Origin: a virus
Virus genome (UHGV): UHGV-0389216
Strand: one strand, 5' to 3'
Length of the DNA: 42,736 bases
The notes below the pieces were generated by a model. It searched no databases. It worked only from the letters and a program-made list of their open reading frames with translations, and was not told the origin of the DNA. A program made the translations under genes and the position numbers. Below are positions 2,820 through 28,546 of the stretch, one piece after another (within the stretch, counting starts at the first letter, position 1; each line of letters begins with the position of its first letter).

Positions 2820-3572
2820 ATGGCAGTATCTGACCAGACCCGCAGCGGCGACCTTGCTGAAACATTCAAATCTGAACGGGAAACAACAAAGAACCAGATC
2901 CGTGTCGCCTTGCCTGGCATTGTTCAGTCATTCGATCCCGACGCGGTGACGGCGGTTGTGCAGCCAGCTATCCGTTCGGTTGAAAAGGATAACGACGGTA
3001 ACCGCATTACCAAAAATTACCCGTTGCTGGTGGATGTGCCAGTGGTATTTCCGCGCGGCGGAGGCTGTACGTTGACTTTTCCGGTTAAAGCCGGGGATGA
3101 GTGTCTTGTCGTTTTTGCCGATCGTTGTATTGATTTCTGGTGGCAGAGCGGTGGGATACAGGAGCCGGTCGATGACAGAATGCATGATTTATCGGATGCG
3201 TTTTGTATTGTCGGTCCCCAGTCGCAGGCGAGGAAGATTAGCGGTATTAATACCAGTGCTACACAGTTGCGTAGTGACGACGGCAGCACCTATTTTGAGC
3301 TTAATCCTGATACCAGGAAAATTAAAATTGTCGCTCCGGGGGGCCTTGATGTGGTTGCCCCTCTGGCTGATTTTTCTGAGAAAGTAACCATTCATGGCCT
3401 GTTAACCTGGATGGGGGGCATGGTGGGGTCTGTTGTTTCTGGTGTAGCTTCAAAAATCACTGGTGCTGTTGAGTTTTTGGGTAGCGTGAAGGCTAACGGC
3501 AAGCCAATCGATGATACGCACACTCATGGCGGTGTTCAGCGCGGTGGAAGCAATACCGATGGGGTAAACTGA
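2820..3572 (+). CDS. baseplate assembly/spike protein (gpV-like, putative)
   Basis: 250-aa ORF, ATG 2820 after CTGGAG; position before small baseplate protein and J-like gene; Gly-rich C-terminus. Confidence 0.5.
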   Translation: MAVSDQTRSGDLAETFKSERETTKNQIRVALPGIVQSFDPDAVTAVVQPAIRSVEKDNDGNRITKNYPLLVDVPVVFPRGGGCTLTFPVKAGDECLVVFADRCIDFWWQSGGIQEPVDDRMHDLSDAFCIVGPQSQARKISGINTSATQLRSDDGSTYFELNPDTRKIKIVAPGGLDVVAPLADFSEKVTIHGLLTWMGGMVGSVVSGVASKITGAVEFLGSVKANGKPIDDTHTHGGVQRGGSNTDGVN

Positions 3573-3925
3573 TGCGATACAGACGTGAAGACGCCGATGG
3601 CGATTACACCTTTGGCAGCGGTGATGACACCTGGCTGATTAACTCACCGGAGGCCGTGGCGCAGGCGGTAAAAACGCGATTCGAATTGTGGTATGGGCAA
3701 TGGTTTCTCGACACCACCGAAGGGACTCCGTGGATCCAGTCCGTGCTCGGTAAGCAGAAGCCGGAAACCTACAACCTGGCGATCCGTAAGCGCATCCTCG
3801 AAACGCAGGGCGTTAAATCAATCCTCTCTTTCAATACGACGGTGGATACCACGACCCGACGTGTCATGTTTTCCGCTGAAATCGACACTCTTTATGGAAT
3901 AACGACTGTTACATCGGAGGCGTAA
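3572..3925 (+). CDS. small baseplate protein (gpW/gp25-like, putative)
   Basis: 117 aa; start overlaps previous stop (TGATG); conserved V-W-J-I type order. Confidence 0.45.
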   Translation: MRYRREDADGDYTFGSGDDTWLINSPEAVAQAVKTRFELWYGQWFLDTTEGTPWIQSVLGKQKPETYNLAIRKRILETQGVKSILSFNTTVDTTTRRVMFSAEIDTLYGITTVTSEA

Positions 3926-7539: not shown

Positions 7540-8607
7540 TTATTGAAATTTATCTCGGATGAATTGCTGCGATGGTTTTTCAATGAATATATATGACATA
7601 TAGCTAATTGCCATTAATGTAAGCATGAATAAAATGAATACATTGGAGCTGTAAAAAAGATCGCGTCCATAGCCAATCCTGTCAGCTAAATAAACAGCAA
7701 TGATTTGCAAAGGAAAATGTAAAAGATAAGATGAATAACTGATATCACCCAACCATTCAATTTTCTTCCCAAAGTCGTTTCGCATTGCGCTAATTGATAC
7801 AAGGAAAAATATTATGGAGGTAAATCCAAATAAAATAATTGAGAATATATCTGCTACTTGCAGGATAAAAATAACTCCCCACGAGATTAATAGAAAAACA
7901 CAAGCGAAAATAAAAAATGATTTTGTGCCAATATTTTTTATGAACGCAATCGTAATTTTATAGGTCAGACCACCAATAAAGAAAGAGAATGCGCCGATCA
8001 TTATGGGATTGTTAATTTTGAAAAAGTAGTACGACAATGCAACTATTAAAATTGATATGAATGTTGTTTTTGATGTGAACTTGCATAATATAAAAAATAT
8101 CATGTACATAAGTACTTCAATCGACACGGACCATGTCGGTGCGTTGAAGGACCAACCTCGCTCAAATCCCCATGATTGAATCATCAATAAATTCAGAATG
8201 GCATGGTAAATGTCATTCATAGGATAAACAAAAAAATAATTATAACTTTTAAAGAAAATAATTTGTAATATTACCACGACAGCAAATGTAAATATATAAA
8301 GTGGATATAATCTACTGACACGGTTAACTATAAAAGTTTTTGCTGAGGTTTTATTGCTGTGTATATTGTCAGCGTATAGATAAAAAAATATGAATCCAGA
8401 AATCATAAAAAACAATTCGACAGCATATAAACCGTAATGATAAAAGACGGAAAAAAATTCATAAAAAGGTTGGCGGTTTATGATTATGTCAGATGCAGCA
8501 TTCTTTTTCATAAAAAAATGTTGCCAATGCCATAACACAACTGAAAGTGCGGCAAATCCTCTCAGAACATCTAGGGTATATATTCTTTTCCCAAAAACAT
8601 TCGTCAC
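7540..8607 (-). CDS. acyltransferase family 3 membrane protein, O-antigen acetylase-like
   Basis: 355 aa, GTG start. N-terminal LDVLRGFAALSVVLWHWQHFF motif and about 10 hydrophobic helices as in Oac/OafA-type acyltransferases; strongly AT-rich; opposite strand to tail genes. Confidence 0.75.
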   Translation of the reverse strand: MTNVFGKRIYTLDVLRGFAALSVVLWHWQHFFMKKNAASDIIINRQPFYEFFSVFYHYGLYAVELFFMISGFIFFYLYADNIHSNKTSAKTFIVNRVSRLYPLYIFTFAVVVILQIIFFKSYNYFFVYPMNDIYHAILNLLMIQSWGFERGWSFNAPTWSVSIEVLMYMIFFILCKFTSKTTFISILIVALSYYFFKINNPIMIGAFSFFIGGLTYKITIAFIKNIGTKSFFIFACVFLLISWGVIFILQVADIFSIILFGFTSIIFFLVSISAMRNDFGKKIEWLGDISYSSYLLHFPLQIIAVYLADRIGYGRDLFYSSNVFILFMLTLMAISYMSYIFIEKPSQQFIRDKFQ

Positions 8608-8849
8608 AACGAACCTCTTTTAATAAAGTCAAGTGATAATGAAAAGTAAATATTGTAAACGAAAAAACACTGGACTGGAACATATATCTCTGCCTGTAAT
8701 TTAACCAAGATAGTTTTACTAACATAATCATAATTCGTTTATATGAACACATCCCGTTTGCAAGGCATCCATTGTTATGACATTGACGGTAGGTTGCAGC
8801 TTTATATCCGGCTTTTTGCAGCCGCAAAGCTGCTAGCCCCTATGTAATT

Positions 8850-10260
8850 CGCTGACTCACACCTCATTTCCTGTGCGGGCTTTAAGCTCAAAGAATTATT
8901 CAGGTTTAGCGAGTCACGGTCTTACCTGTCGTTGTCATCACTCTGGCCGCCAGAGCAACCTTTCAGTATTCACCCTTTCATTAAAAGTTAATATTTATCG
9001 GTATCAGCGATTAATATGGTCTGATACTGACATGATTCTTGTCGTATTTACTTCCATGAGCTGCTATCGCCCATACTGTTCGTGCCAGTTTGTTTGCCAT
9101 GGCGACGATTGCCACGCTGGCTGGACGACGTTTTTTCAGTTCGGTTATCCACGGACCAGGTTCTTTGGTCAGTAATGCTGCCGCCCTTGCGCCATGAATA
9201 AACAAGGCTCGCAGATATGTATCACCACGTTTGCTTATCCCCAGCAGGCGGATTTTCCCTCCTGAGCCAGTCTGTTTGGGCACCAGACCAACATAAGCCG
9301 CGAACTCTCGCCCTGATTTAAACGCTGATGCTTCCCCCATGGTGGCCACCGCTGCCGTCGCAATAAGTGGCCCAACGCCGGGAATATCCAGCAACCGCTT
9401 ACAGGTTTCATTCTGTTTCGCCACGCTGGTAAGCTGTTTTTCAATATCCTCTATCAGTGAGTCCAGCTCATTCAGCCGGTTGTACTGGTTTTCCAGCACA
9501 GTAATGAGATACGGTGGCAGTCTCTCTTTCATCCGCTCCAGTGCTTCAGGGAACTCCCGCTCCATTGCTGCCCGACCTTTGTGAATTGTTTCACCAAATT
9601 CCAGGAGCGTGCCGTGCAGGGAGTTAATCTGCATGGTGCGGAACTTCACCAGTTGTCTGCGGGAACGATGCAGAACCAGTACCGACTGCTGTTCTTCTGT
9701 TTTGACAGCGATTTCCTTGCCGGGCTGTTGTACTGCCATCCAGATAGCCCGGGCATCCATAACATCGTTTTTATTACCCATGACGAACGCTTTAACGAAG
9801 CGGGCCTGCAACAACCGGACTTTATGACCCAGCTTTGTCAGTTCACGTGCCCAGTGCTGCGAGCCTCCACAGGCCTCCATACCAATCAGGCAGGGTTCCC
9901 GATTACAGAAGAACATCAGAAAATCCTGACGACGCAACTGCTTATCAATCACTTCACCTGTGTGCTCGTCGATGAAGTGAACCTGAATGACATGTTTTGC
10001 GATATCAACGCCAACCGGTGTATATTTCATTTGTGGAGTCTCCAGTCTGAAGGAGCTTTATGCATCCCGTATTGGGCACTATGATGCCGGAAATCTGCGA
10101 GGCTCCACACCTTCCTGTATTTCCCTTCATCTATCACTGTGCACCTTACTTAATGGGGGGGATGTGTTCATTACATTTCATGTATACCAGATGAAAGTGC
10201 ATGTTCTATGAAACAGGGTTTTGCCTGGAGTTTGAAGGGTTTTAAAGATTATACCTGTTT
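8850..10260 (-). mobile_element. IS110-family insertion sequence (boundaries approximate)
   Basis: Contains a single IS110-type transposase ORF with about 160 bp 3' and about 230 bp 5' non-coding flank. Exact ends not determinable by eye. Confidence 0.5.
9011..10030 (-). CDS. IS110-family transposase (DEDD-type)
   Basis: 339 aa starting MKYTPVGVDIAKHVIQVHFIDEHTGEV with ...GMEACGG...NDVMDARA..., the N-terminal DEDD fold pattern of IS110/IS1111 transposases; C-terminal domain follows. Confidence 0.85.
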   Translation of the reverse strand: MKYTPVGVDIAKHVIQVHFIDEHTGEVIDKQLRRQDFLMFFCNREPCLIGMEACGGSQHWARELTKLGHKVRLLQARFVKAFVMGNKNDVMDARAIWMAVQQPGKEIAVKTEEQQSVLVLHRSRRQLVKFRTMQINSLHGTLLEFGETIHKGRAAMEREFPEALERMKERLPPYLITVLENQYNRLNELDSLIEDIEKQLTSVAKQNETCKRLLDIPGVGPLIATAAVATMGEASAFKSGREFAAYVGLVPKQTGSGGKIRLLGISKRGDTYLRALFIHGARAAALLTKEPGPWITELKKRRPASVAIVAMANKLARTVWAIAAHGSKYDKNHVSIRPY

Positions 10261-11613: not shown

Positions 11614-11750
11614 GACTGTAATTATATACAGGTGATGGTCTTCAATTTCGAAGAGGGAGTCAAGGGGAGTCTCAAATGAACCGTTATAGAAAGGGGGGGA
11701 TCTTTGTGTTGCTGAACTTATGCAAAATTTTTCGCACCATAAATCCAACA

Positions 11751-11782
11751 ACACATTCAATAACACATTCAATAACACATTA
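11751..11782. repeat. tandem direct repeat, 12-bp unit ACACATTCAATA (2.7 copies)
   Basis: ACACATTCAATA ACACATTCAATA ACACATTA read directly, in the AT-rich region upstream of int. Confidence 0.7.
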
Positions 11783-12081
11783 CCGTATCATCATGAAAAT
11801 AAATATATTTTTATTTAATTTCACACATATCACAATTAATACAGCGTTTAGTAATTAGTAAAGACATTTCAATGGATTACCGTTAAATCATTTTAAAATC
11901 AGTAAGTTGTATCGAGTTTGTATGCTTTACTGTCATTAACTTACTGTATGTTGATCCAGTGTATTTAACCTTGATAAACTCAGTCCAGCAACACAAAACC
12001 GCAACACATTGCATTTTGTCCCGTAGAAAAGACTTGTATGTGTGAGCTTGTTTTCTGCGCCTACGCAGATAAGGATTGAGA

Positions 12082-23531: not shown

Positions 23532-24155
23532 CTAACGTTTACGGCGGTAAATACGGTGTTCGATCATTACACCTATGATCTGTAAGTTCATATCTGCACT
23601 ACGAAAAATAGGGTAATCAGGATTTAGGGGGATTAATTCAAAGTCGTCGATGCCGATTCCTAATGGACGGTATTTTTTAAATGTAGCTTCGTGACCGTCG
23701 TTTTTGGCGACAACAAACTCCCCTGGTGCAGGACATAGATCAGGATCGATGATAACAATGTCTCCTTCTTTAAACTCTGGTTGCATGCTGTCGCCATCGA
23801 TACGTAATGCGAAGCATGTTTCTGGAATGTCAGAGTCTGCCAAAATATATTCAAATTCCCCTGTCAGATCTGTTATGTCTCTTGCTTCTGTAAGCTCTCC
23901 TGCCTGAACGTAACTTAATATAGGTATGCGTCTGGTACTTATCTCCGCGAGAGGCATAATATTTTTACCGTTCAGTAGCCAGTCTGGGCTACATTTCAAG
24001 GCCTTAGCCAGATCCAGAAGATTGCGTGGCTTTCTGGTTCGTCCACTTTCGATGGATTCTATGGATTGTTGGCTAACCCCTGCAGAATTCGCTACTTCCA
24101 CTTGAGTCATTCCTAATTCCAAACGACGTGCTTTAAAACGGGCTGCGAGAGACAT
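23532..24155 (-). CDS. CI-like repressor (HTH plus S24 LexA-like peptidase domain)
   Basis: ATG 24155 with AGGA upstream; HTH MTQVEVANSAGVSQQSIESIESG; peptidase motif RIDGDSMQPEF; divergent from Cro-like gene. Confidence 0.85.
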   Translation of the reverse strand: MSLAARFKARRLELGMTQVEVANSAGVSQQSIESIESGRTRKPRNLLDLAKALKCSPDWLLNGKNIMPLAEISTRRIPILSYVQAGELTEARDITDLTGEFEYILADSDIPETCFALRIDGDSMQPEFKEGDIVIIDPDLCPAPGEFVVAKNDGHEATFKKYRPLGIGIDDFELIPLNPDYPIFRSADMNLQIIGVMIEHRIYRRKR

Positions 24156-24178
24156 GGGATTAGTCCTTCTGGGTTGTA

Positions 24179-24256
24179 TTAATGTGTATCCCCACATTAA
24201 AAACAATTTTTGTTGTATTTGACAAACCTCGTTTGTTGTTGCTAAATACCACTAAA
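24179..24256. promoter_or_regulatory. operator palindrome plus PR-like promoter of the immunity switch
   Basis: Perfect inverted repeat TTAATGTG-N6-CACATTAA (24179-24200); TTGACA (24219-24224), 18-bp spacer, TAAATA (24243-24248), then Cro start. Confidence 0.5.
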
Positions 24257-24275
24257 ATTGTATGAGGTGAAAGCA

Positions 24276-24488
24276 ATGACCTTAGCGACCCGAGTAAAAG
24301 AACGACGTAAAGAACTCAAAATGACGCAAGTTACGTTGGCTGAGCTCACAGGAGTGAGCCAGCAGGCAATAAACAGAATTGAAAGTGGTGTTATTGCTCG
24401 GCCACGTTATCTTCTTGAAATGTCTATAGCATTGGATTGCGACCCTAATTGGCTGTTGTATGGCTCACAAAACGATAAAAAGGCTTAA
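24276..24488 (+). CDS. Cro-like HTH regulator
   Basis: ATG 24276 preceded by GAGGTG; HTH MTQVTLAELTGVSQQAINRIESG; 71 aa. Confidence 0.7.
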   Translation: MTLATRVKERRKELKMTQVTLAELTGVSQQAINRIESGVIARPRYLLEMSIALDCDPNWLLYGSQNDKKA

Positions 24489-24491
24489 CCC

Positions 24492-26684
24492 ATGTCCGAT
24501 AGCAAACCATGGGGAGCTACGCCTGATGAGTGGTTTCATTTCGACCTGGTATTGGGGAGAACTGATCATCTTCTCCCAGTTGTATGTAACCCCAGTGCGA
24601 CCATATCCCCTGATAGTAAACTGAAAGCGTTGGGTAAGACGCCGAGTCGCTATAACCGGGACCGCCAGGTCACCGGTATTGCTCAATGGACTGGGCATGT
24701 TGTTACTGAGCATGATTTTGCCCGCTGGTCGAATGAACCGGATTATGGCATCTGCGTGCGTACAGGCCATGGCTGGCTGGCGCTGGACTGCGATAGCGAA
24801 GATGAAGACATTCAGGCAGATATTCGCAAAACGCTTGTGCAACTTCTGGGGGAGTTGCCGCCGCGACGCTGGCGAGCAAACAGTAATAAGTGTCTGTATC
24901 TGCTGGCCGTTGATGGTGATTTCCGTAAACGTATCCATCGCCTGGCGGGGGATATGGGCATTATCGAGTTGCTGGCGAACGGGCAGCAGTTCGTTGCCTG
25001 CGGTACGCACAGCAGCGGCGCGCGTATTGAATGGGACGGCGGTTTGCCGGATGAACCTCCGGCTATTACTGGTGAGCAGCTTGAAACGCTGTGGCAGCGC
25101 CTGGCTGAACAACTCCCTGTGTCGGTAACCACCGAAGCGGGCAACACGAAGATGCGCGACCGATCAGCATTCACGCCCGGCGCGACGGATGATACAGCTG
25201 AATATCTTGATGCCAATGGCTGGACGCTGCTGGATGGCGCAAATGGTGAACGATATATCCGCTGTCCGTTTGAAGACGGCCACAGTAGCGGGGGCGATCC
25301 AACAAGCACAGTTTATTTTCCTGCGGGAACCGCGGGCTTTGAGCAGGGGCATTTTAAATGCCTGCATGCCAGTTGTGCGCATCGTGATGACGGAGATTTC
25401 CTTAATGCCATCGGGATCCGCAACGACGATTTCGAAGATCTGACCAGCATCGAAGTGGCGGAACCTTTACCGCTGCCTGCTTTCGAGCGTGATAAATGGG
25501 GGCGTATCGAGGCAACCATCAGCAACGCAGCCAAAGCAGTAGTACGCCCTGATTTTGTGGACATCGATATTCGCTTTGACCAGTTCCGCGACGAAATCAT
25601 GTTTGCCCCTGCAGGATCCGGACAATGGCGGGCATTCACCGATGCGGATTATGCGCGCCTGCGCATCACGATGGAAAAGCGGGGATTTAAACCTGTTGGC
25701 CGTGAACTTATTCGCGATGTGGTGTTACTTGCAGCCGATGAACAACCATTCGATTCAGCGATCACCTGGCTGAACGGACTGGAGTGGGATGGCGTGCCGC
25801 GCATCGAATGTTTCTACCATACGCACTTCGGTACCGCCGACACGCCTTATACCCGTGCGGTGTCTATGTACATGTGGACCGCGTTGGCGGGGCGAGTACT
25901 GGAGCCAGGCATCAAAGCGGATATGGTGCCGATCCTCGTTGGTCCGCAGGGCTGCGGTAAGTCTTCCGGAGTGGAGGCACTGAGCCCTGATCCTGCGTTT
26001 TTTACTGAAATCTCTTTTGCCGAAAAAGACGATGATCTCGCTCGAAAAATGCGTGGTCGGCTGGTGGCAGAGATTGGTGAACTGCGCGGACTTAATACCA
26101 AAGAGCTGGAGTCAATCAAAGCGTTTGTGACGCGTACTCACGAAAACTGGATCCCGAAATACCGGGAGTTCGCCACCCAGTTTCCTCGTCGCCTGGTGTT
26201 CGTTGGTACCACCAATGAGGACGAATTCCTTGCGGACAAGACTGGTAACCGTCGCTGGCTCCCCGTGGAAGTGTCGAAAGTCGACGTGAAAGCGATAAAA
26301 AGAGATCTCCTTTTACTTTGGGCTGAGGCTCGTGAGGTGTTTCAGCGTCTGGGGGGTATCCAGTTCCGTGAGGCTGAACAACTGGCAGCGAGTGTCCATG
26401 AACAGTACACCATCAAGGATGCTTGGCTTGAAACGGTAGAGAAATGGCTCGACACGCCAGACCTGATGACTAATGAACTTCCGCGAAATTGCGAATTTTT
26501 ACGCGCAAGTGATGTTTTGCGTGATGCGATTGGGCTAAATCCTGACCGCATCGGAAAACGCGAAGAAATGCGAATTAGTAATGTTTTGCAAAATTGCGGG
26601 TATAAGCGTGTTCAACGTCGTGTTGACGGAAAAATGACTCGAATTTTTGAGGCGGTGTCCCAACCTGTACCAGCCTCAAAATAG
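24492..26684 (+). CDS. bifunctional primase / P-loop NTPase (primase-helicase, P4 alpha-like)
   Basis: 730 aa; N-terminal prim-pol-like region, Cys/His cluster; C-terminal Walker A VGPQGCGKSS with downstream NTPase motifs. Confidence 0.8.
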   Translation: MSDSKPWGATPDEWFHFDLVLGRTDHLLPVVCNPSATISPDSKLKALGKTPSRYNRDRQVTGIAQWTGHVVTEHDFARWSNEPDYGICVRTGHGWLALDCDSEDEDIQADIRKTLVQLLGELPPRRWRANSNKCLYLLAVDGDFRKRIHRLAGDMGIIELLANGQQFVACGTHSSGARIEWDGGLPDEPPAITGEQLETLWQRLAEQLPVSVTTEAGNTKMRDRSAFTPGATDDTAEYLDANGWTLLDGANGERYIRCPFEDGHSSGGDPTSTVYFPAGTAGFEQGHFKCLHASCAHRDDGDFLNAIGIRNDDFEDLTSIEVAEPLPLPAFERDKWGRIEATISNAAKAVVRPDFVDIDIRFDQFRDEIMFAPAGSGQWRAFTDADYARLRITMEKRGFKPVGRELIRDVVLLAADEQPFDSAITWLNGLEWDGVPRIECFYHTHFGTADTPYTRAVSMYMWTALAGRVLEPGIKADMVPILVGPQGCGKSSGVEALSPDPAFFTEISFAEKDDDLARKMRGRLVAEIGELRGLNTKELESIKAFVTRTHENWIPKYREFATQFPRRLVFVGTTNEDEFLADKTGNRRWLPVEVSKVDVKAIKRDLLLLWAEAREVFQRLGGIQFREAEQLAASVHEQYTIKDAWLETVEKWLDTPDLMTNELPRNCEFLRASDVLRDAIGLNPDRIGKREEMRISNVLQNCGYKRVQRRVDGKMTRIFEAVSQPVPASK

Positions 26685-26836
26685 AGGTTGGTACATTTAA
26701 CTAATTGAATTTAAAGGCCAGTACCAACTGTACCAACTGTACCAACCTAATTACTAAGAACCCCATATATATATATAAGTCGCTTGGGGAAAAGGTTTGA
26801 AAAGAGCTGGTACAGGTGGGTACAGGCTGGTACAGG
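26664..26836. repeat. iteron cluster with AT-rich spacer (candidate replication origin)
   Basis: GTACCAAC three times at 9-bp spacing (26721, 26730, 26739), inverted copy GGTTGGTAC (26686-26694), (TA)n tract 26765-26777, GGTACAGG three times at 10-bp spacing (26809, 26819, 26829), inverted copy CCTGTACCA (26664-26672). Confidence 0.6.
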
Positions 26837-26964
26837 CCGAACAAGGAATTTTTTGCACATAACAGCGTGTAATAAGCGAATCGAAACTGCGTTATCCACA
26901 CCCACGGATAAACAGACGTAGTTCTCAGAAAATTTTTTCGTAGCAAAACGTAGAGGTCAGAGCT

Positions 26965-27387
26965 ATGCGTAATATTCAACAGGTTTTAGAGCGCTGGGGT
27001 GGCTGGGCAGCGAGTGAAGGTGGTAGCGTCTACTTTCCTCCTGTTGCAGCTGGGTTTAAGAATCTGCTACCCGCGACGCACTCTGGAAGGCTGAAATGCA
27101 GTGACAATGACGGTCTTATCATCAACTCCGCTATGAGCTGCCTGAAGAAAAAAGATCCGTATCTGTGCACGCTCCTTGAGTGGCATTACGTCCAGGCCAT
27201 GCCCGTGCGGACGATGGGTGAGAAGCTCGGCGTATCTCACACCCACGTTCTGAAGAGGCTTCAGGCGGCAGAGGGATTTATTGACGGTTGCTTAGCCATG
27301 CTGGATGTGGTGCTCGAAATGGATCAGTCGGTTCAGTCAAAGCCTCAGGCTATCAGGACATTGCGTAGGAGCTGCTCGGCGGCATAA
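26965..27387 (+). CDS. late-gene antiterminator Q-like protein
   Basis: 140 aa starting MRNIQQVLERWGGWAASEGG, similar as I recall to Q-type antiterminator N-termini; upstream of the lysis cassette. Confidence 0.55.
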   Translation: MRNIQQVLERWGGWAASEGGSVYFPPVAAGFKNLLPATHSGRLKCSDNDGLIINSAMSCLKKKDPYLCTLLEWHYVQAMPVRTMGEKLGVSHTHVLKRLQAAEGFIDGCLAMLDVVLEMDQSVQSKPQAIRTLRRSCSAA

Positions 27388-27418
27388 TATCCAGCAATCA
27401 ATCACGTAAGGGAACCAG

Positions 27419-27760
27419 ATGGCTCTGATCAGCGTTCGCAACAGATTTGAAAGCTTCATGGAACAGAGGTATCCAGACTTGTCGTTGCAGGTCAAAGGTA
27501 ATATTGGCGCATCAATGAAGGCTCAACTTGGCATCAGGATTGAACGAGAATTGTACAGTGAAGATGTTACTTATTGTGATTCAGCAGTTCAGTTGATGTG
27601 GACACTCTTTCAGGCAGGTGTTCTGGCCGAACGAAGAGCTACCAGCGTTACGCTTCCTGCGCTGAAGGCAAAGCCGGATAGCTTCTACGATGCGGGTTAT
27701 AACGAAGGTATTCAGGACTGTCGTAAACATCTGACGGCATCAGGCATCAAGGTAAGATAA
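27419..27760 (+). CDS. hypothetical protein
   Basis: 113-aa ORF between Q-like gene and first late-region terminator. Confidence 0.4.
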   Translation: MALISVRNRFESFMEQRYPDLSLQVKGNIGASMKAQLGIRIERELYSEDVTYCDSAVQLMWTLFQAGVLAERRATSVTLPALKAKPDSFYDAGYNEGIQDCRKHLTASGIKVR

Positions 27761-27828
27761 AAAATAGTTGTGGAATTCCAAAAAGCCGATTAGCCTAATA
27801 TCTGTTGAAAACAGTTCATCACGAAGAG

Positions 27829-27850
27829 GCTCCCGCAAGGGGGCTTTTTT
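27829..27850 (+). terminator. rho-independent terminator
   Basis: GCTCCC-GCAA-GGGGGC hairpin followed by TTTTTT. Confidence 0.6.
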
Positions 27851-28080
27851 AATGCTCTATTCTCAGTAAAAGTTAATAAAACAGGGTTTTCGTCGCGAAA
27901 AAACGCTATGCAGTTTTTGCCCTTTTTTATGCACCTTTTATTCACTCGAATTTCGCCATTCTGGACCACTTAAGTTGATTAAATAGGCCTTTCATCGCAA
28001 ATCTATTGCGAGCGGGGATCGTGTGGTTCCTATAACGTACATTATGTTAAATAACCTTCTTTTTTAACAAATTTAACAAG

Positions 28081-28103
28081 GTTCGCTATGGCGAACTTTT
28101 TTT
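28081..28103 (+). terminator. rho-independent terminator (tR'-like, before lysis genes)
   Basis: GTTCGC-TATG-GCGAAC hairpin followed by TTTTTTT, about 100 bp upstream of the holin start. Confidence 0.6.
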
Positions 28104-28204
28104 GTATTCAGGGCCCACCGAAGGACGGCTCATAACCCAATTCTACGGGCGTATACGCAGGGCCCGCCTTTCAACAACACCCCGTAATGGCGGAGGTGGG
28201 AAGT

Positions 28205-28546
28205 ATGAAAATGCACAATGCTCCTCATTCCTGGCCTGACTTACTGGAACTCTTACAAAGTTGGTGGCGTGGAGATACGCCGTTGGGCGCAGTGGTTATG
28301 TCAATTGTTATGGCTGGTTTGCGCATTGCCTATTTTGGCGGTGGCGGCGGCTGGAAACGAAAAACGCTTGAGATTTTGCTCTGTGGTGCTCTGACGCTGA
28401 CCTTTGCATCCGCTCTTGAGTATGTTGGATGGCCTAAATCGCTTTCTGTTGCCATTGGTGGTGGTGTTGGGCTGATCGGTGTCGATGCTATTCGTGGGGC
28501 TGCAATGCGAGTAATCGGTAACAAGTTTGGTGGCTCTAAGGAGTAA
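28205..28546 (+). CDS. holin (three predicted TM segments, dual-start MKM)
   Basis: GGAGG 9 nt upstream of ATG 28205; Met-Lys-Met dual start; three hydrophobic helices; immediately upstream of endolysin. The ORF-track start at 28187 has no SD. Confidence 0.7.
   Translation: MKMHNAPHSWPDLLELLQSWWRGDTPLGAVVMSIVMAGLRIAYFGGGGGWKRKTLEILLCGALTLTFASALEYVGWPKSLSVAIGGGVGLIGVDAIRGAAMRVIGNKFGGSKE

What the first reader, a model, noticed from the sequence alone, without database searches (positions are those of the whole stretch)
26664..26836. Iteron-type origin candidate immediately downstream of the primase-helicase gene
Two sets of three direct repeats (GTACCAAC at 9-bp spacing; GGTACAGG at 10-bp spacing), each with an inverted copy, flank a (TA)n tract (26765-26777). 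Helically phased iterons next to an easily melted AT tract, placed at the 3' end of the initiator gene, is the standard architecture of phage/plasmid origins (lambda ori within O; P4 ori/crr bound by alpha). The shared GTACCA core is the likely recognition element. The minus-strand ORF predicted here is a translation artefact of the repeats.
Basis: partly seen in the sequence, partly recalled or inferred. Interest (0 to 1): 0.5.

Follow-up and report, generated by a model that had tools for sequence, protein, structure and literature searches.

The report
Iteron replication origin after prophage primase-helicase
The repeats just after the primase-helicase gene of this E. coli prophage are very probably its replication origin, built like the origins of staphylococcal pathogenicity islands; related phages keep the same layout but swap the repeat sequence together with a few residues of the initiator's DNA-binding wing.

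Summary
Window 26656-26834 holds nine copies of a single 9-bp motif, TGTACCAAC. Two direct copies and one inverted copy straddle the stop codon of the primase-helicase gene. Three direct copies follow at a 9-bp period. Next is a 59-bp spacer whose (TA)6 tract is the least stable 15-bp duplex in the whole window. Three inverted copies at a 10-bp period close the element.

The upstream gene encodes Prim-Pol, a VapE/SF3 helicase and a C-terminal winged helix. Its helicase domain is homologous to SaPI1 Rep1 (PDB 7PDS, E=8e-34). SaPI Rep origins are described as iterons immediately 3' of rep, placed in opposite orientation around an AT-rich centre.

105 of 110 distinct relatives keep this layout, including YeP4, APSE-1 and a Caulobacter Rauchvirus. 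The Enterobacterales loci fall into 12 iteron consensus types. In each locus all copies change together, and they covary with the wing hairpin residues 707-708 and 715-720. They do not covary with equally close flanking DNA.

My verdict is a SaPI-type, self-loading initiator-helicase origin in a temperate phage: a new member of a known kind. Replication and binding were not tested. I found no description of this origin for this phage group in the papers I could search.

The parts
24492..26684 (+). Initiator gene of 730 aa. It encodes Prim-Pol (AEP primase-polymerase, aa 53-185), a VapE/SF3 helicase (aa 427-639) and a C-terminal winged-helix domain (about aa 640-721).
   Evidence: Pfam VapE-like_dom E=2.3e-60. 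Prim-Pol PF09250 E=2e-10. PHROG helicase and primase families. PDB 7PDS, SaPI1 Rep1, E=8e-34 over aa 393-657.
26379..26681 (+). Coding region of the C-terminal domain (aa 630-730). Helix H3 is aa 689-701 (nt 26556-26594) and is nearly invariant. The wing hairpin is aa 704-721 (nt 26601-26654) and is variable. It is the inferred iteron reader.
26656..26664 (+). Iteron 1 (TGTCCCAAC, one mismatch). It lies inside the last codons of the gene.
   Evidence: The position is conserved in relatives.
26666..26674 (+). Iteron 2 (TGTACCAGC). It lies inside the last codons, and the tail peptide QPVPASK is its translation.
26687..26695 (-). Iteron 3 (TGTACCAAC on the - strand). With iteron 2 it forms a 12-bp inverted repeat around the TAG stop codon at 26682-26684.
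   Evidence: Inverted repeat I10. As RNA the hairpin folds at -23.5 kcal/mol, z = -4.9.
26720..26746 (+). Left array: iterons 4-6 (AGTACCAAC, TGTACCAAC, TGTACCAAC), contiguous at a 9-bp period.
   Evidence: E. coli strain 16F5M1D1 has four copies here.
26747..26805 (.). Central 59-bp spacer, the putative unwinding element. It contains (TA)6 at 26765-26777, bracketed by CCCCA and TGGGG. The sequence ACTAAGAACCCCAT(AT)nAAGTCG..GGGGAAAGGTT is conserved among relatives.
   Evidence: Least stable 15-bp window of 42.7 kb. GC is 0.36. Conservation is shown in the alignment.
26806..26834 (-). Right array: iterons 7-9 (TGTACCAGC, TGTACCCAC, TGTACCAGC on the - strand) at a 10-bp period. It is inverted relative to the left array.
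26892..26900 (+). Perfect DnaA-box consensus TTATCCACA, a possible accessory host-factor site. Whether it belongs to the origin is uncertain.
   Evidence: It is the only perfect match in the window. It is present in only 21 of 96 relatives and travels with one type of downstream flank.

Best explanation
This is the replication origin of the prophage. It is a SaPI-type origin served by a self-loading initiator-helicase.

Proposed mechanism:
1. After induction, the rightward early operon (cro, primase-helicase, Q) is expressed.
2. The C-terminal winged-helix domain of the primase-helicase binds the 9-bp iterons, mainly through its beta-hairpin wing.
3. The two arrays face each other across a 59-bp spacer and position initiator oligomers on both sides of the (TA)6 tract.
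4. The tract melts and the SF3 helicase rings load themselves onto single strands.
5. The fused Prim-Pol domain primes synthesis.
6. The phage's own DNA polymerase I, encoded in the leftward operon, extends the primers.

What is shown here: the anatomy; its conservation; the domain architecture; homology of the helicase domain to SaPI1 Rep1; and covariation between the wing residues and the iterons.

What is inferred: binding, melting, helicase loading, priming, the roles of the stop-codon cluster and of the DnaA box, and the order of events.
For: 1. Anatomy. Nine copies of one motif, arranged as inverted arrays around the least stable 15-bp tract of the window.

2. Initiator. It combines Prim-Pol, VapE/SF3 helicase and a winged helix. 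The helicase domain matches SaPI1 Rep1 (7PDS) at E=8e-34. Qiao et al. 2022 (PMC9371898) describe SaPI Reps as initiator-helicases. According to that paper, the C-terminal winged-helix domain binds iterons that lie immediately downstream of rep. An AT-rich centre has at least 2 iterons on each side pointing in opposite directions.

3. Conservation. 105 of 110 distinct relatives meet the repeat criterion, against 13 of 218 controls. The relatives come from IMG/VR, from GTDB genomes of Entero-, Beta- and Alphaproteobacteria, and include YeP4, APSE-1 and Caulobacter phage Jess A. The same layout is visible by eye.

4. Concerted specificity swaps. There are 12 iteron consensus types on a conserved scaffold. 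Within a locus all copies carry the same variant.

5. Protein-DNA covariation. Iteron distance correlates with wing distance at r=0.74, and at partial r=0.75 given the rest of the protein. In a multiple regression on distance matrices, the two wing strands have betas of 0.57 and 0.40 (p<=0.001). Equally linked controls have betas of 0.08 (upstream nucleotides), 0.09 (central spacer) and 0.02 (downstream flank), all non-significant. Mutual information peaks at residues 715, 716, 720, 707 and 708, while helix H3 is nearly invariant. The same wing goes with the same iteron in distant hosts. GKQQR[VI]F goes with TAGACAACC in YeP4, Morganella, Providencia and Phlomobacter. QIRVW goes with TAGACCACC in Pectobacterium and Caballeronia.

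6. Small untyped plasmids carry a helicase-plus-CTD homologue as their only replication-like gene. It is followed by iterons, an AT-rich stretch and inverted iterons.
Against: - No experiment shows binding, melting or replication from this fragment.
- The AT-rich element is short. At 20-60 bp scales the region is not the least stable in the window.
- Wing codons and iterons are adjacent, so joint inheritance inflates the raw correlations. The regression with linked controls reduces this objection but does not remove it.
- The simple rule 'W goes with C-C-AC, F/Y goes with C-A-AC' holds 96/96 in the aligned set. It fails in APSE-1 and Arsenophonus, where W goes with GTAACAACC. It also fails in two alphaproteobacterial loci.
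- Symbiopectobacterium carries two copies of the same type in one genome. This does not fit a strict incompatibility model.
Confidence: 0.8

Rival explanations
1. The repeats are bound by the primase-helicase, but their main job is regulatory. Possibilities are autoregulation, copy control by handcuffing, or a roadblock or attenuator in front of the late-gene activator Q. On this reading initiation occurs elsewhere.
For: The cluster lies between the replication gene and Q in one operon. Iterons 2 and 3 form a stable hairpin at the stop codon. Iteron plasmids are known to use iterons for copy control as well as initiation (general knowledge; reviewed in PMC4980987, listed).
Against: No other iteron cluster or comparable repeat plus AT structure exists in the window. 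The inverted arrays around an easily melted tract match the tested SaPI origin plan. Small plasmids have the same module as their only candidate replicon. A regulatory role could also coexist with origin function.
Confidence: 0.08
2. The feature is essentially an RNA-level signal. The inverted repeat at the stop codon would be an intrinsic terminator or attenuator separating early genes from Q, and the other repeats would be incidental.
For: The hairpin folds at -23.5 kcal/mol with z = -4.9. The YeP4 version is followed by UAUUUUU. Both arms change together between relatives.
Against: The consensus scan calls no + strand terminator there, and the tail in the window is AUUUAAC, with no U run. 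The compensatory changes occur equally in seven copies that are not part of any hairpin. There is no Rfam match. This reading does not explain the two phased arrays around a TA tract.
Confidence: 0.04
3. The repeats are binding sites for a different protein. Candidates are Q, CI or Cro, a partition protein, small terminase (a pac site), or integrase arm sites.
For: Repeat arrays of 9-10 bp occur in many such systems (general knowledge).
Against: Iteron type is independent of the downstream Q-proximal flank (beta 0.02; the same flank occurs with many iteron types). Iteron type does track the initiator wing. The operators would lie in the cI-cro gap at 24207-24257, and the motif is absent there. 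No partition genes are nearby. Terminase and integrase lie kilobases away.
Confidence: 0.04
4. The repeats are neutral slippage products with no function.
For: Copy number varies. There are 3 or 4 copies in the left array among E. coli strains.
Against: The layout is conserved from Enterobacterales to Alphaproteobacteria, while the sequence is replaced in concert on both strands. Shuffles never reach the observed counts.
Confidence: 0.01

Closest known systems
SaPI (staphylococcal pathogenicity island) origins with Rep1 / PriRep5 initiator-helicases (Ubeda 2007, 2012 as cited in Qiao et al. 2022, PMC9371898)
   Same: - Iterons start immediately 3' of the rep ORF.
- There is an AT-rich centre with iterons on both sides in opposite orientation.
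- The initiator is an SF3 (VapE-like) helicase with a C-terminal winged helix.
- The primase is fused to the helicase, as in PriRep5.
- The helicase domain is homologous to Rep1 (7PDS, E=8e-34).
   Different: - The host element is a complete temperate phage of E. coli with its own DNA polymerase, not a satellite.
- Iterons are 9 bp rather than 5-6 bp.
- An extra cluster of two direct copies plus one inverted copy overlaps the stop codon.
- The C-terminal domain has no detectable sequence similarity to the SaPI domains; the phmmer alignment stops at aa 657.
Satellite phage P4: alpha protein with ori and crr
   Same: One polypeptide combines primase, SF3-type helicase and a C-terminal winged-helix origin-binding domain that reads short octamer-like iterons. 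This description of P4 is from my own knowledge and was not tested here.
   Different: P4 needs two separated cis sites, ori and crr. Here only one cluster exists in the window. 1KA8 did not appear among the listed fold hits. As I recall, the P4 primase domain belongs to a different family; I did not test this.
Lambda ori / O protein and the lambdoid O-ori specificity types
   Same: Iterons lie next to an AT-rich region inside the rightward early operon. Initiator and iterons are genetically linked, so specificity modules can be exchanged between related phages (general knowledge).
   Different: The initiator is not an O-type protein; Pfam gives Prim-Pol plus VapE. It carries its own helicase rather than recruiting DnaB through a P protein. 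The iterons lie after the gene rather than inside it, and they are arranged as two inverted arrays around the AT tract.
Archaeal plasmid pRN1 ORF904 (prim-pol + SF3 helicase + winged helix)
   Same: It has the same three-domain initiator plan. Essential cis sequence lies within 166 bp downstream of the gene (abstract of PMC4234260 and title and abstract of PMC2777425, both listed).
   Different: It is archaeal. I found no report of inverted iteron arrays in what I read. Homology to this protein was not tested here.
Iteron plasmids (pPS10 RepA, R6K pi, RK2 TrfA)
   Same: Winged-helix initiators bind phased direct repeats beside an AT-rich unwinding element, often with DnaA boxes (review PMC4980987, listed). 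A perfect DnaA box lies 58 bp from the right array.
   Different: Those Rep proteins have no helicase or primase and depend on DnaA, DnaB and DnaG. Their iterons are about 17-22 bp direct repeats on one side of the unwinding element. The DnaA box here is not conserved among relatives.

Membership tests
SaPI-type origin served by a self-loading SF3 initiator-helicase | Iterons lie immediately downstream of the initiator ORF. | tested here: met
   The first iterons overlap the last 9 codons, and the last iteron ends 150 bp after the stop codon. The same holds in 105 of 110 relatives.
SaPI-type origin served by a self-loading SF3 initiator-helicase | An AT-rich centre has at least 2 iterons on each side pointing in opposite directions. 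| tested here: met
   Three copies on the + strand (26720-26746) and three on the - strand (26806-26834) flank the (TA)6 tract at 26765-26777.
SaPI-type origin served by a self-loading SF3 initiator-helicase | The initiator contains an SF3 helicase domain related to Rep1 / PriRep5. | tested here: met
   phmmer against the PDB hits 7PDS (SaPI1 Rep1) at E=8e-34 over aa 393-657. Pfam VapE-like_dom E=2.3e-60.
SaPI-type origin served by a self-loading SF3 initiator-helicase | The initiator has a C-terminal winged-helix domain. | tested here: met
SaPI-type origin served by a self-loading SF3 initiator-helicase | The C-terminal domain binds its own iterons specifically. | not testable with these tools
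   The evidence is indirect only. Wing residues covary with iteron type while linked flanks do not.
SaPI-type origin served by a self-loading SF3 initiator-helicase | The ori fragment plus the initiator suffice for replication. | not testable with these tools
   The only hint is that small untyped plasmids carry this module as their only replication-like gene.
Phage-inducible chromosomal island (SaPI/PICI) as an element | The element is a satellite that lacks its own virion and lysis genes. | tested here: not met
   The element encodes holin, endolysin, terminase, portal, head and tail genes. It is a full prophage, so only the origin type is shared.
Lambda-type ori/O | An O-family initiator with the iterons inside its coding sequence. 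| tested here: not met
   Pfam finds Prim-Pol and VapE, and no Phage_rep_O domain. Only two of the nine iterons touch the coding sequence.
P4 alpha ori/crr | A second, separate iteron cluster (crr) is required in cis. | tested here: not met
   The motif occurs elsewhere in the window only as isolated single copies. Only the 42.7-kb window was searched, and it does not include the distal end of the prophage.
Classical iteron plasmid origin | The initiator lacks a helicase and depends on host DnaA and DnaB; DnaA boxes are conserved. | tested here: not met
   The initiator carries helicase and primase domains. The DnaA box is present here but in only 21 of 96 relatives.

The most novel reading that the evidence does not exclude
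Specificity would be read mainly by the beta-hairpin wing of the winged helix, with the canonical recognition helix nearly invariant.

- Residues 715/716 would track the 5' half of the 9-mer.
- The aromatic residue 719 would track position 7.
- Strand residues 707/708 would also contribute.

On this reading, this family of temperate phages (APSE, YeP4, BPP-1-like early modules and many enterobacterial prophages) has diversified into a dozen or more orthogonal initiator/origin pairs on an otherwise 90-99% identical protein. The presumed driver is selection against cross-activation or hijacking by co-resident relatives and satellites. It would be a natural, ready-made set of orthogonal replicons and a compact protein-DNA recognition code.
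Probability: 0.45. Interest if true: 0.6.

Novelty: new member of a known kind. Interest (0 to 1): 0.45.

Why it matters
It gives a concrete, testable origin for a widespread replication module. The module combines Prim-Pol, VapE helicase and a winged helix. It occurs in E. coli, Enterobacter, Salmonella and Klebsiella prophages, Yersinia phage YeP4, the aphid-symbiont phage APSE, Rauchvirus-type phages and some small cryptic plasmids. The papers I could search on APSE and YeP4 do not mention an origin.

It extends the SaPI 'self-loading initiator-helicase plus flanking iterons' plan from Gram-positive satellites to complete temperate phages of Proteobacteria.

The series of concerted iteron/wing swaps is a natural experiment on how initiator-origin specificity evolves. 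It could supply orthogonal replicons.

It also flags annotation artefacts over origins: the minus-strand ORF here and the 'P4' CDS of APSE-1.

Tried and rejected
- **Rfam.** A scan of 26300-27200 at E<=1 found nothing.
- **Promoters and terminators.** The consensus scan of 24000-28300 found no more sites than shuffles give, and no + strand terminator at the stop-codon hairpin.
- **N-terminal domain against the PDB.** phmmer with aa 1-369 gave no hit.
- **Protein search with the C-terminal domain alone.** It returned only 19 close fragments and was of little use. The exhaustive representative search was more informative. It gave 239 clusters at E<=0.001. Where the proteins are full-length, the match lies at the extreme C-terminus of proteins of about 440-830 aa.
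- **A one-residue code.** The rule 'Trp goes with C, Phe/Tyr goes with A at iteron position 7' was perfect in 96 aligned loci. I reject it as universal. APSE-1 and Arsenophonus pair W with GTAACAACC, and alphaproteobacterial loci L116 and L127 also break it.
- **GC skew.** Skew in the primase gene follows transcription direction, so I did not use it to locate the origin.
- **DnaA box.** I considered it an integral part of the origin but downgraded it because it is not conserved.
- **P4-like second site (crr).** None is present in the window.
- **Primary SaPI origin papers.** PMC1964853 and PMC3804134 are not held, so the SaPI features are taken from Qiao et al. 2022.
- **pYe4449-2.** No paper describing this plasmid was found.
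Full report
**1. What is in the sequence**

Tandem Repeats Finder reports a 9-bp array at 26721-26746 with 100% matches. It also reports a 10-bp array at 26809-26837 with 89% matches.

GTACCAAC occurs 6 times in the 42.7-kb window against 0.91 expected. GGTACAGG occurs 6 times against 0.61 expected. In both cases none of 100 dinucleotide-preserving shuffles reaches 6, and four of the six matches lie inside the feature.

Reading both strands shows that the 'two sets' are one motif. As 9-mers the copies are:

| Copy | Coordinates | Strand | Sequence |
|---|---|---|---|
| 1 | 26656-26664 | + | TGTCCCAAC |
| 2 | 26666-26674 | + | TGTACCAGC |
| 3 | 26687-26695 | - | TGTACCAAC |
| 4-6 | 26720-26746 | + | AGTACCAAC, TGTACCAAC, TGTACCAAC |
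| 7-9 | 26806-26834 | - | TGTACCAGC, TGTACCCAC, TGTACCAGC |

The layout therefore has four parts:
- a proximal cluster of two direct copies and one inverted copy around the TAG stop codon at 26682-26684;
- a left array;
- a 59-bp spacer;
- a right array inverted relative to the left one.

The spacer carries (TA)6 at 26765-26777. By nearest-neighbour energies this is the least stable 15-bp window of the whole window, rank 1 of 42,721. At 20-60 bp scales it is not exceptional.

**2. Context**

The window is identical to a prophage of E. coli strain E62. About 45 complete E. coli genomes carry the 401-bp region at 96-100% identity, always between a 'VapE domain-containing protein' and an 'antiterminator Q family protein'.

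The gene order is as follows:
- a leftward operon running from the integrase end, with SNF2 helicase, methyltransferases, VRR-NUC, DNA polymerase I, DUF2815 and DUF2800;
- a CI-like repressor at 23532-24206 on the - strand;
- a Cro-like gene at 24258-24488;
- the 730-aa primase-helicase at 24492-26684;
- the repeats;
- Q at 26965-27387;
- holin, endolysin, terminase and structural genes.

The 730-aa protein has three parts:
- a Prim-Pol domain, PF09250, E=2e-10;
- a VapE/SF3 helicase domain, E=2.3e-60;
- a C-terminal ~90 residues with no Pfam match.

**3. Link to a studied system**

phmmer against the PDB gives one hit, 7PDS, at E=8e-34 over aa 393-657. 7PDS is the SaPI1 Rep1-DNA complex.

The paper describing it (Qiao et al. 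2022, PMC9371898) makes these statements about SaPI Reps:
- They are initiator-helicases that load themselves.
- Their C-terminal winged-helix domain recognises short iterons.
- Six to twelve iterons lie immediately downstream of the rep ORF.
- An AT-rich region sits in the centre.
- At least two iterons on each side point in opposite directions.
- SaPI5 has the primase fused to Rep.

That is the plan seen here.

In protein numbering, helix H3 is 689-701 (KREEMRISNVLQN). The wing is 704-721 (YKRVQRRV-DG-KMTRIFEA).

**4. Relatives**

Yersinia phage YeP4 has a primase 74% identical to this one. It shows the same layout with a different motif, AGACAACC(T).

I collected further loci from three sources:
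- Eighty IMG/VR loci with primases 72-99% identical.
- Forty-seven GTDB loci found with the C-terminal domain. These reach Xenorhabdus, Photorhabdus, Providencia, Morganella, Burkholderiales, Nitrosomonadales, Guyparkeria and Alphaproteobacteria.
- Individual phage records examined by eye.

I scored the stretch from 45 bp before to 300 bp after the stop codon. The criterion was at least 6 copies of one 8-mer with at most 1 mismatch, and at least 2 copies in each orientation. 105 of 110 distinct loci pass. Of 218 control windows inside the primase gene, 13 pass.

Two of the five failures are decaying copies in insect endosymbionts. The other three are distant loci.

The layout is also plain in APSE-1, with iteron GTAACAACC. 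It is plain in Caulobacter phage Jess A, a Rauchvirus, with iteron TGTAACCAC.

**5. Concerted swaps and covariation**

I aligned 96 Enterobacterales loci from a fixed anchor in the protein. The scaffold is conserved, including the spacer ACTAAGAACCCCAT(AT)nAAGTCG..GGGGAAAGGTTAGAAAA. The iteron columns are replaced in all nine copies at once.

This gives 12 consensus types. Several of them are alignment-register variants of the two TAGAC-type motifs, so the table below groups them into nine motif classes. Each goes with its own wing sequence:

| Iteron type | Wing sequence |
|---|---|
| TGTACCAAC | GKMTRIF, GKVTRIF |
| TGTCCCAAC | GKKMRIF |
| TGGAACCAC | GKKCKVW |
| TGTAACCAC / TGTATCCAC | GKVQRVW, GKVLKVW |
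| TGTTACCAC | GKLMKVW |
| TGTCCCCAC | GKKQRIW |
| TGTAGCCAC | GKMTKAW |
| TAGACAACC | GKQQR[VI]F |
| TAGACCACC | GKQIRVW |

The statistics are as follows.
- Iteron distance correlates with wing distance at r=0.74. The partial correlation is 0.75 given the rest of the protein.
- The wing codons sit next to the iterons, so linkage is a confound. I therefore regressed iteron distance on wing and on equally close control segments.
- The two wing strands have standardised betas of 0.57 and 0.40, both p<=0.001.
- The 90 nt upstream, the central spacer and the downstream flank have betas of 0.08, 0.09 and 0.02, all non-significant.
- The same downstream flank occurs with many iteron types.
- Per-residue mutual information with iteron type peaks at 716 (0.70), 715 (0.65), 720 (0.53), 707 (0.44) and 708 (0.41). 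H3 is nearly invariant.

Identical wings go with identical iterons in hosts whose proteins are otherwise only 41-74% identical. One example is TAGACAACC in YeP4, Morganella, Providencia and Phlomobacter. Another is TAGACCACC in Pectobacterium and Caballeronia.

A one-residue rule holds 96/96 in the aligned set: Trp 719 with C, and Phe/Tyr with A, at iteron position 7. It holds in three different 5'-half contexts. It fails in APSE-1 and Arsenophonus and in two alphaproteobacterial loci. It is therefore a local regularity, not a general code.

**6. Other supporting observations**

- *Copy number.* The left array has four copies in E. coli 16F5M1D1.
- *Tail peptide.* The last eight residues of the protein (SQPVPASK) are the translation of iterons 1-2. 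In relatives ending ...FEPV* the stop codon lies in front of those iterons. This explains the different protein lengths of 722-730 aa.
- *Small plasmids.* Untyped plasmids of 12.9-16 kb from Serratia, Enterobacter, Klebsiella, Yersinia and Arsenophonus encode a 431-aa homologue with only the helicase and C-terminal domain. It is their only replication-like gene. It is followed by direct iterons, an AT-rich stretch and inverted iterons.
- *Size of the C-terminal-domain family.* It has 239 cluster representatives at E<=0.001. Where the proteins are full-length, the match lies at the extreme C-terminus.

**7. Mechanism proposed**

What is shown: the anatomy, its conservation, the domain architecture, the homology to Rep1 and the wing-iteron covariation.

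What is inferred:
1. After induction the rightward early transcript provides the initiator.
2. Its winged-helix wings bind the iterons.
3. The two inverted arrays place oligomers on either side of the TA tract.
4. The tract melts and SF3 rings load on each strand.
5. Prim-Pol primes and the phage DNA polymerase I extends.

Some points remain open:
- The proximal cluster may add binding sites or act as a roadblock or attenuator before Q. Its hairpin is stable as RNA (-23.5 kcal/mol, z=-4.9), but in this phage it lacks a U tract.
- A perfect DnaA box at 26892-26900 is the only one in the window, but only 21 of 96 relatives have one. Host DnaA may assist in some lineages.

**8. Rivals**

- *Purely regulatory role.* This is not excluded, but it would leave the phage without any other candidate origin in the window. 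It also ignores the match to a tested origin plan.
- *Pure RNA terminator.* This does not explain the seven copies outside the hairpin. Rfam finds nothing.
- *A different binding protein.* This is unlikely because iteron type is independent of the Q-proximal flank and tracks the initiator wing.
- *Chance.* This is excluded.

**9. Comparison with known systems and novelty**

It works like, and by its origin architecture belongs with, the SaPI Rep-iteron origins. The features I could test are met. Binding and sufficiency could not be tested.

It is not a SaPI or PICI element, because it is a full prophage. It is not a lambda O-type origin, because the initiator family and iteron placement differ. 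It is not a P4 ori/crr pair, because there is no second cluster in the window. It is not a classical iteron plasmid origin, because the initiator carries its own helicase and primase.

The searchable literature on YeP4 and APSE describes P3 as an ATPase or helicase and says nothing about an origin or iterons.

I rate it a new member of a known kind. The added value is a natural series of initiator-origin specificity variants.

The minus-strand ORF at 26701-26979 is best treated as an artefact. The APSE-1 'P4' CDS lies on the equivalent spacer and right array and is probably one too.

Noticed in passing
window 26892-26900 (+): A perfect DnaA-box consensus, TTATCCACA, lies 58 bp to the right of the last iteron. 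It is the only perfect box in the 42.7-kb window. It is present in only 21 of 96 relatives and travels with one type of Q-upstream flank.
   Followed up: partly
window 26656-26684: The last eight codons of the primase-helicase (SQPVPASK) are simply iterons 1-2 read in frame. In many relatives a TAA in front of these iterons ends the protein at ...FEPV. The tail is therefore probably dispensable, and this explains the protein lengths of 722-730 aa.
   Followed up: yes
L133 (APSE-1, NC_000935.1) 2261-2482 = record 3445-3666: The annotated hypothetical protein P4 of phage APSE-1 lies on the AT-rich spacer and the right iteron array of the equivalent origin (iteron GTAACAACC). It is probably an over-annotation.
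   Followed up: partly
L131 (NZ_CP096191.1) 7826-9460; L132 (NC_012209.1, pYe4449-2) 8115-9917: Small plasmids with no assigned replicon type encode a 431-aa homologue with only the VapE helicase and C-terminal domain. Downstream of it lie iterons, an AT-rich stretch and inverted iterons (GTTCCACCC in L131, TGTCACACC in L132). This looks like an unrecognised plasmid replicon family.
   Followed up: partly
window 26750-26805: The central spacer is itself conserved among relatives (ACTAAGAACCCCAT(AT)nAAGTCG.TTGGGGAAAGGTTAGAAAA). CCCCA and TGGGG bracket the TA tract, and all spacer types keep TATATAAG. This may be a priming or loading signal. It is unexplained.
   Followed up: no
window 11746-11781 and about 11790-11800: A 12-nt x3 tandem repeat (CAATAACACATT) lies inside the annotated integrase CDS. 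Next to it are the least stable 20-30-bp windows of the whole window.
   Followed up: no
L093 and L096 (Xenorhabdus yunnanensis); L084 and L085 (Symbiopectobacterium sp. RP): One genome carries two such modules with different iteron types (TGTAACCAC and GTAACAACC). Another carries two with the same type (GTACCAAC). This bears on whether the types act as incompatibility groups.
   Followed up: no
window about 12.9-22.8 kb (L003 6281-16298): The leftward operon matches the APSE / YeP4 / BPP-1-type early module. It contains SNF2 helicase, VRR-NUC, DNA polymerase I, DUF2815, DUF2800 and an Nmad5 'nucleotide modification' protein. Here it is joined to a myovirus-type structural module.
   Followed up: partly
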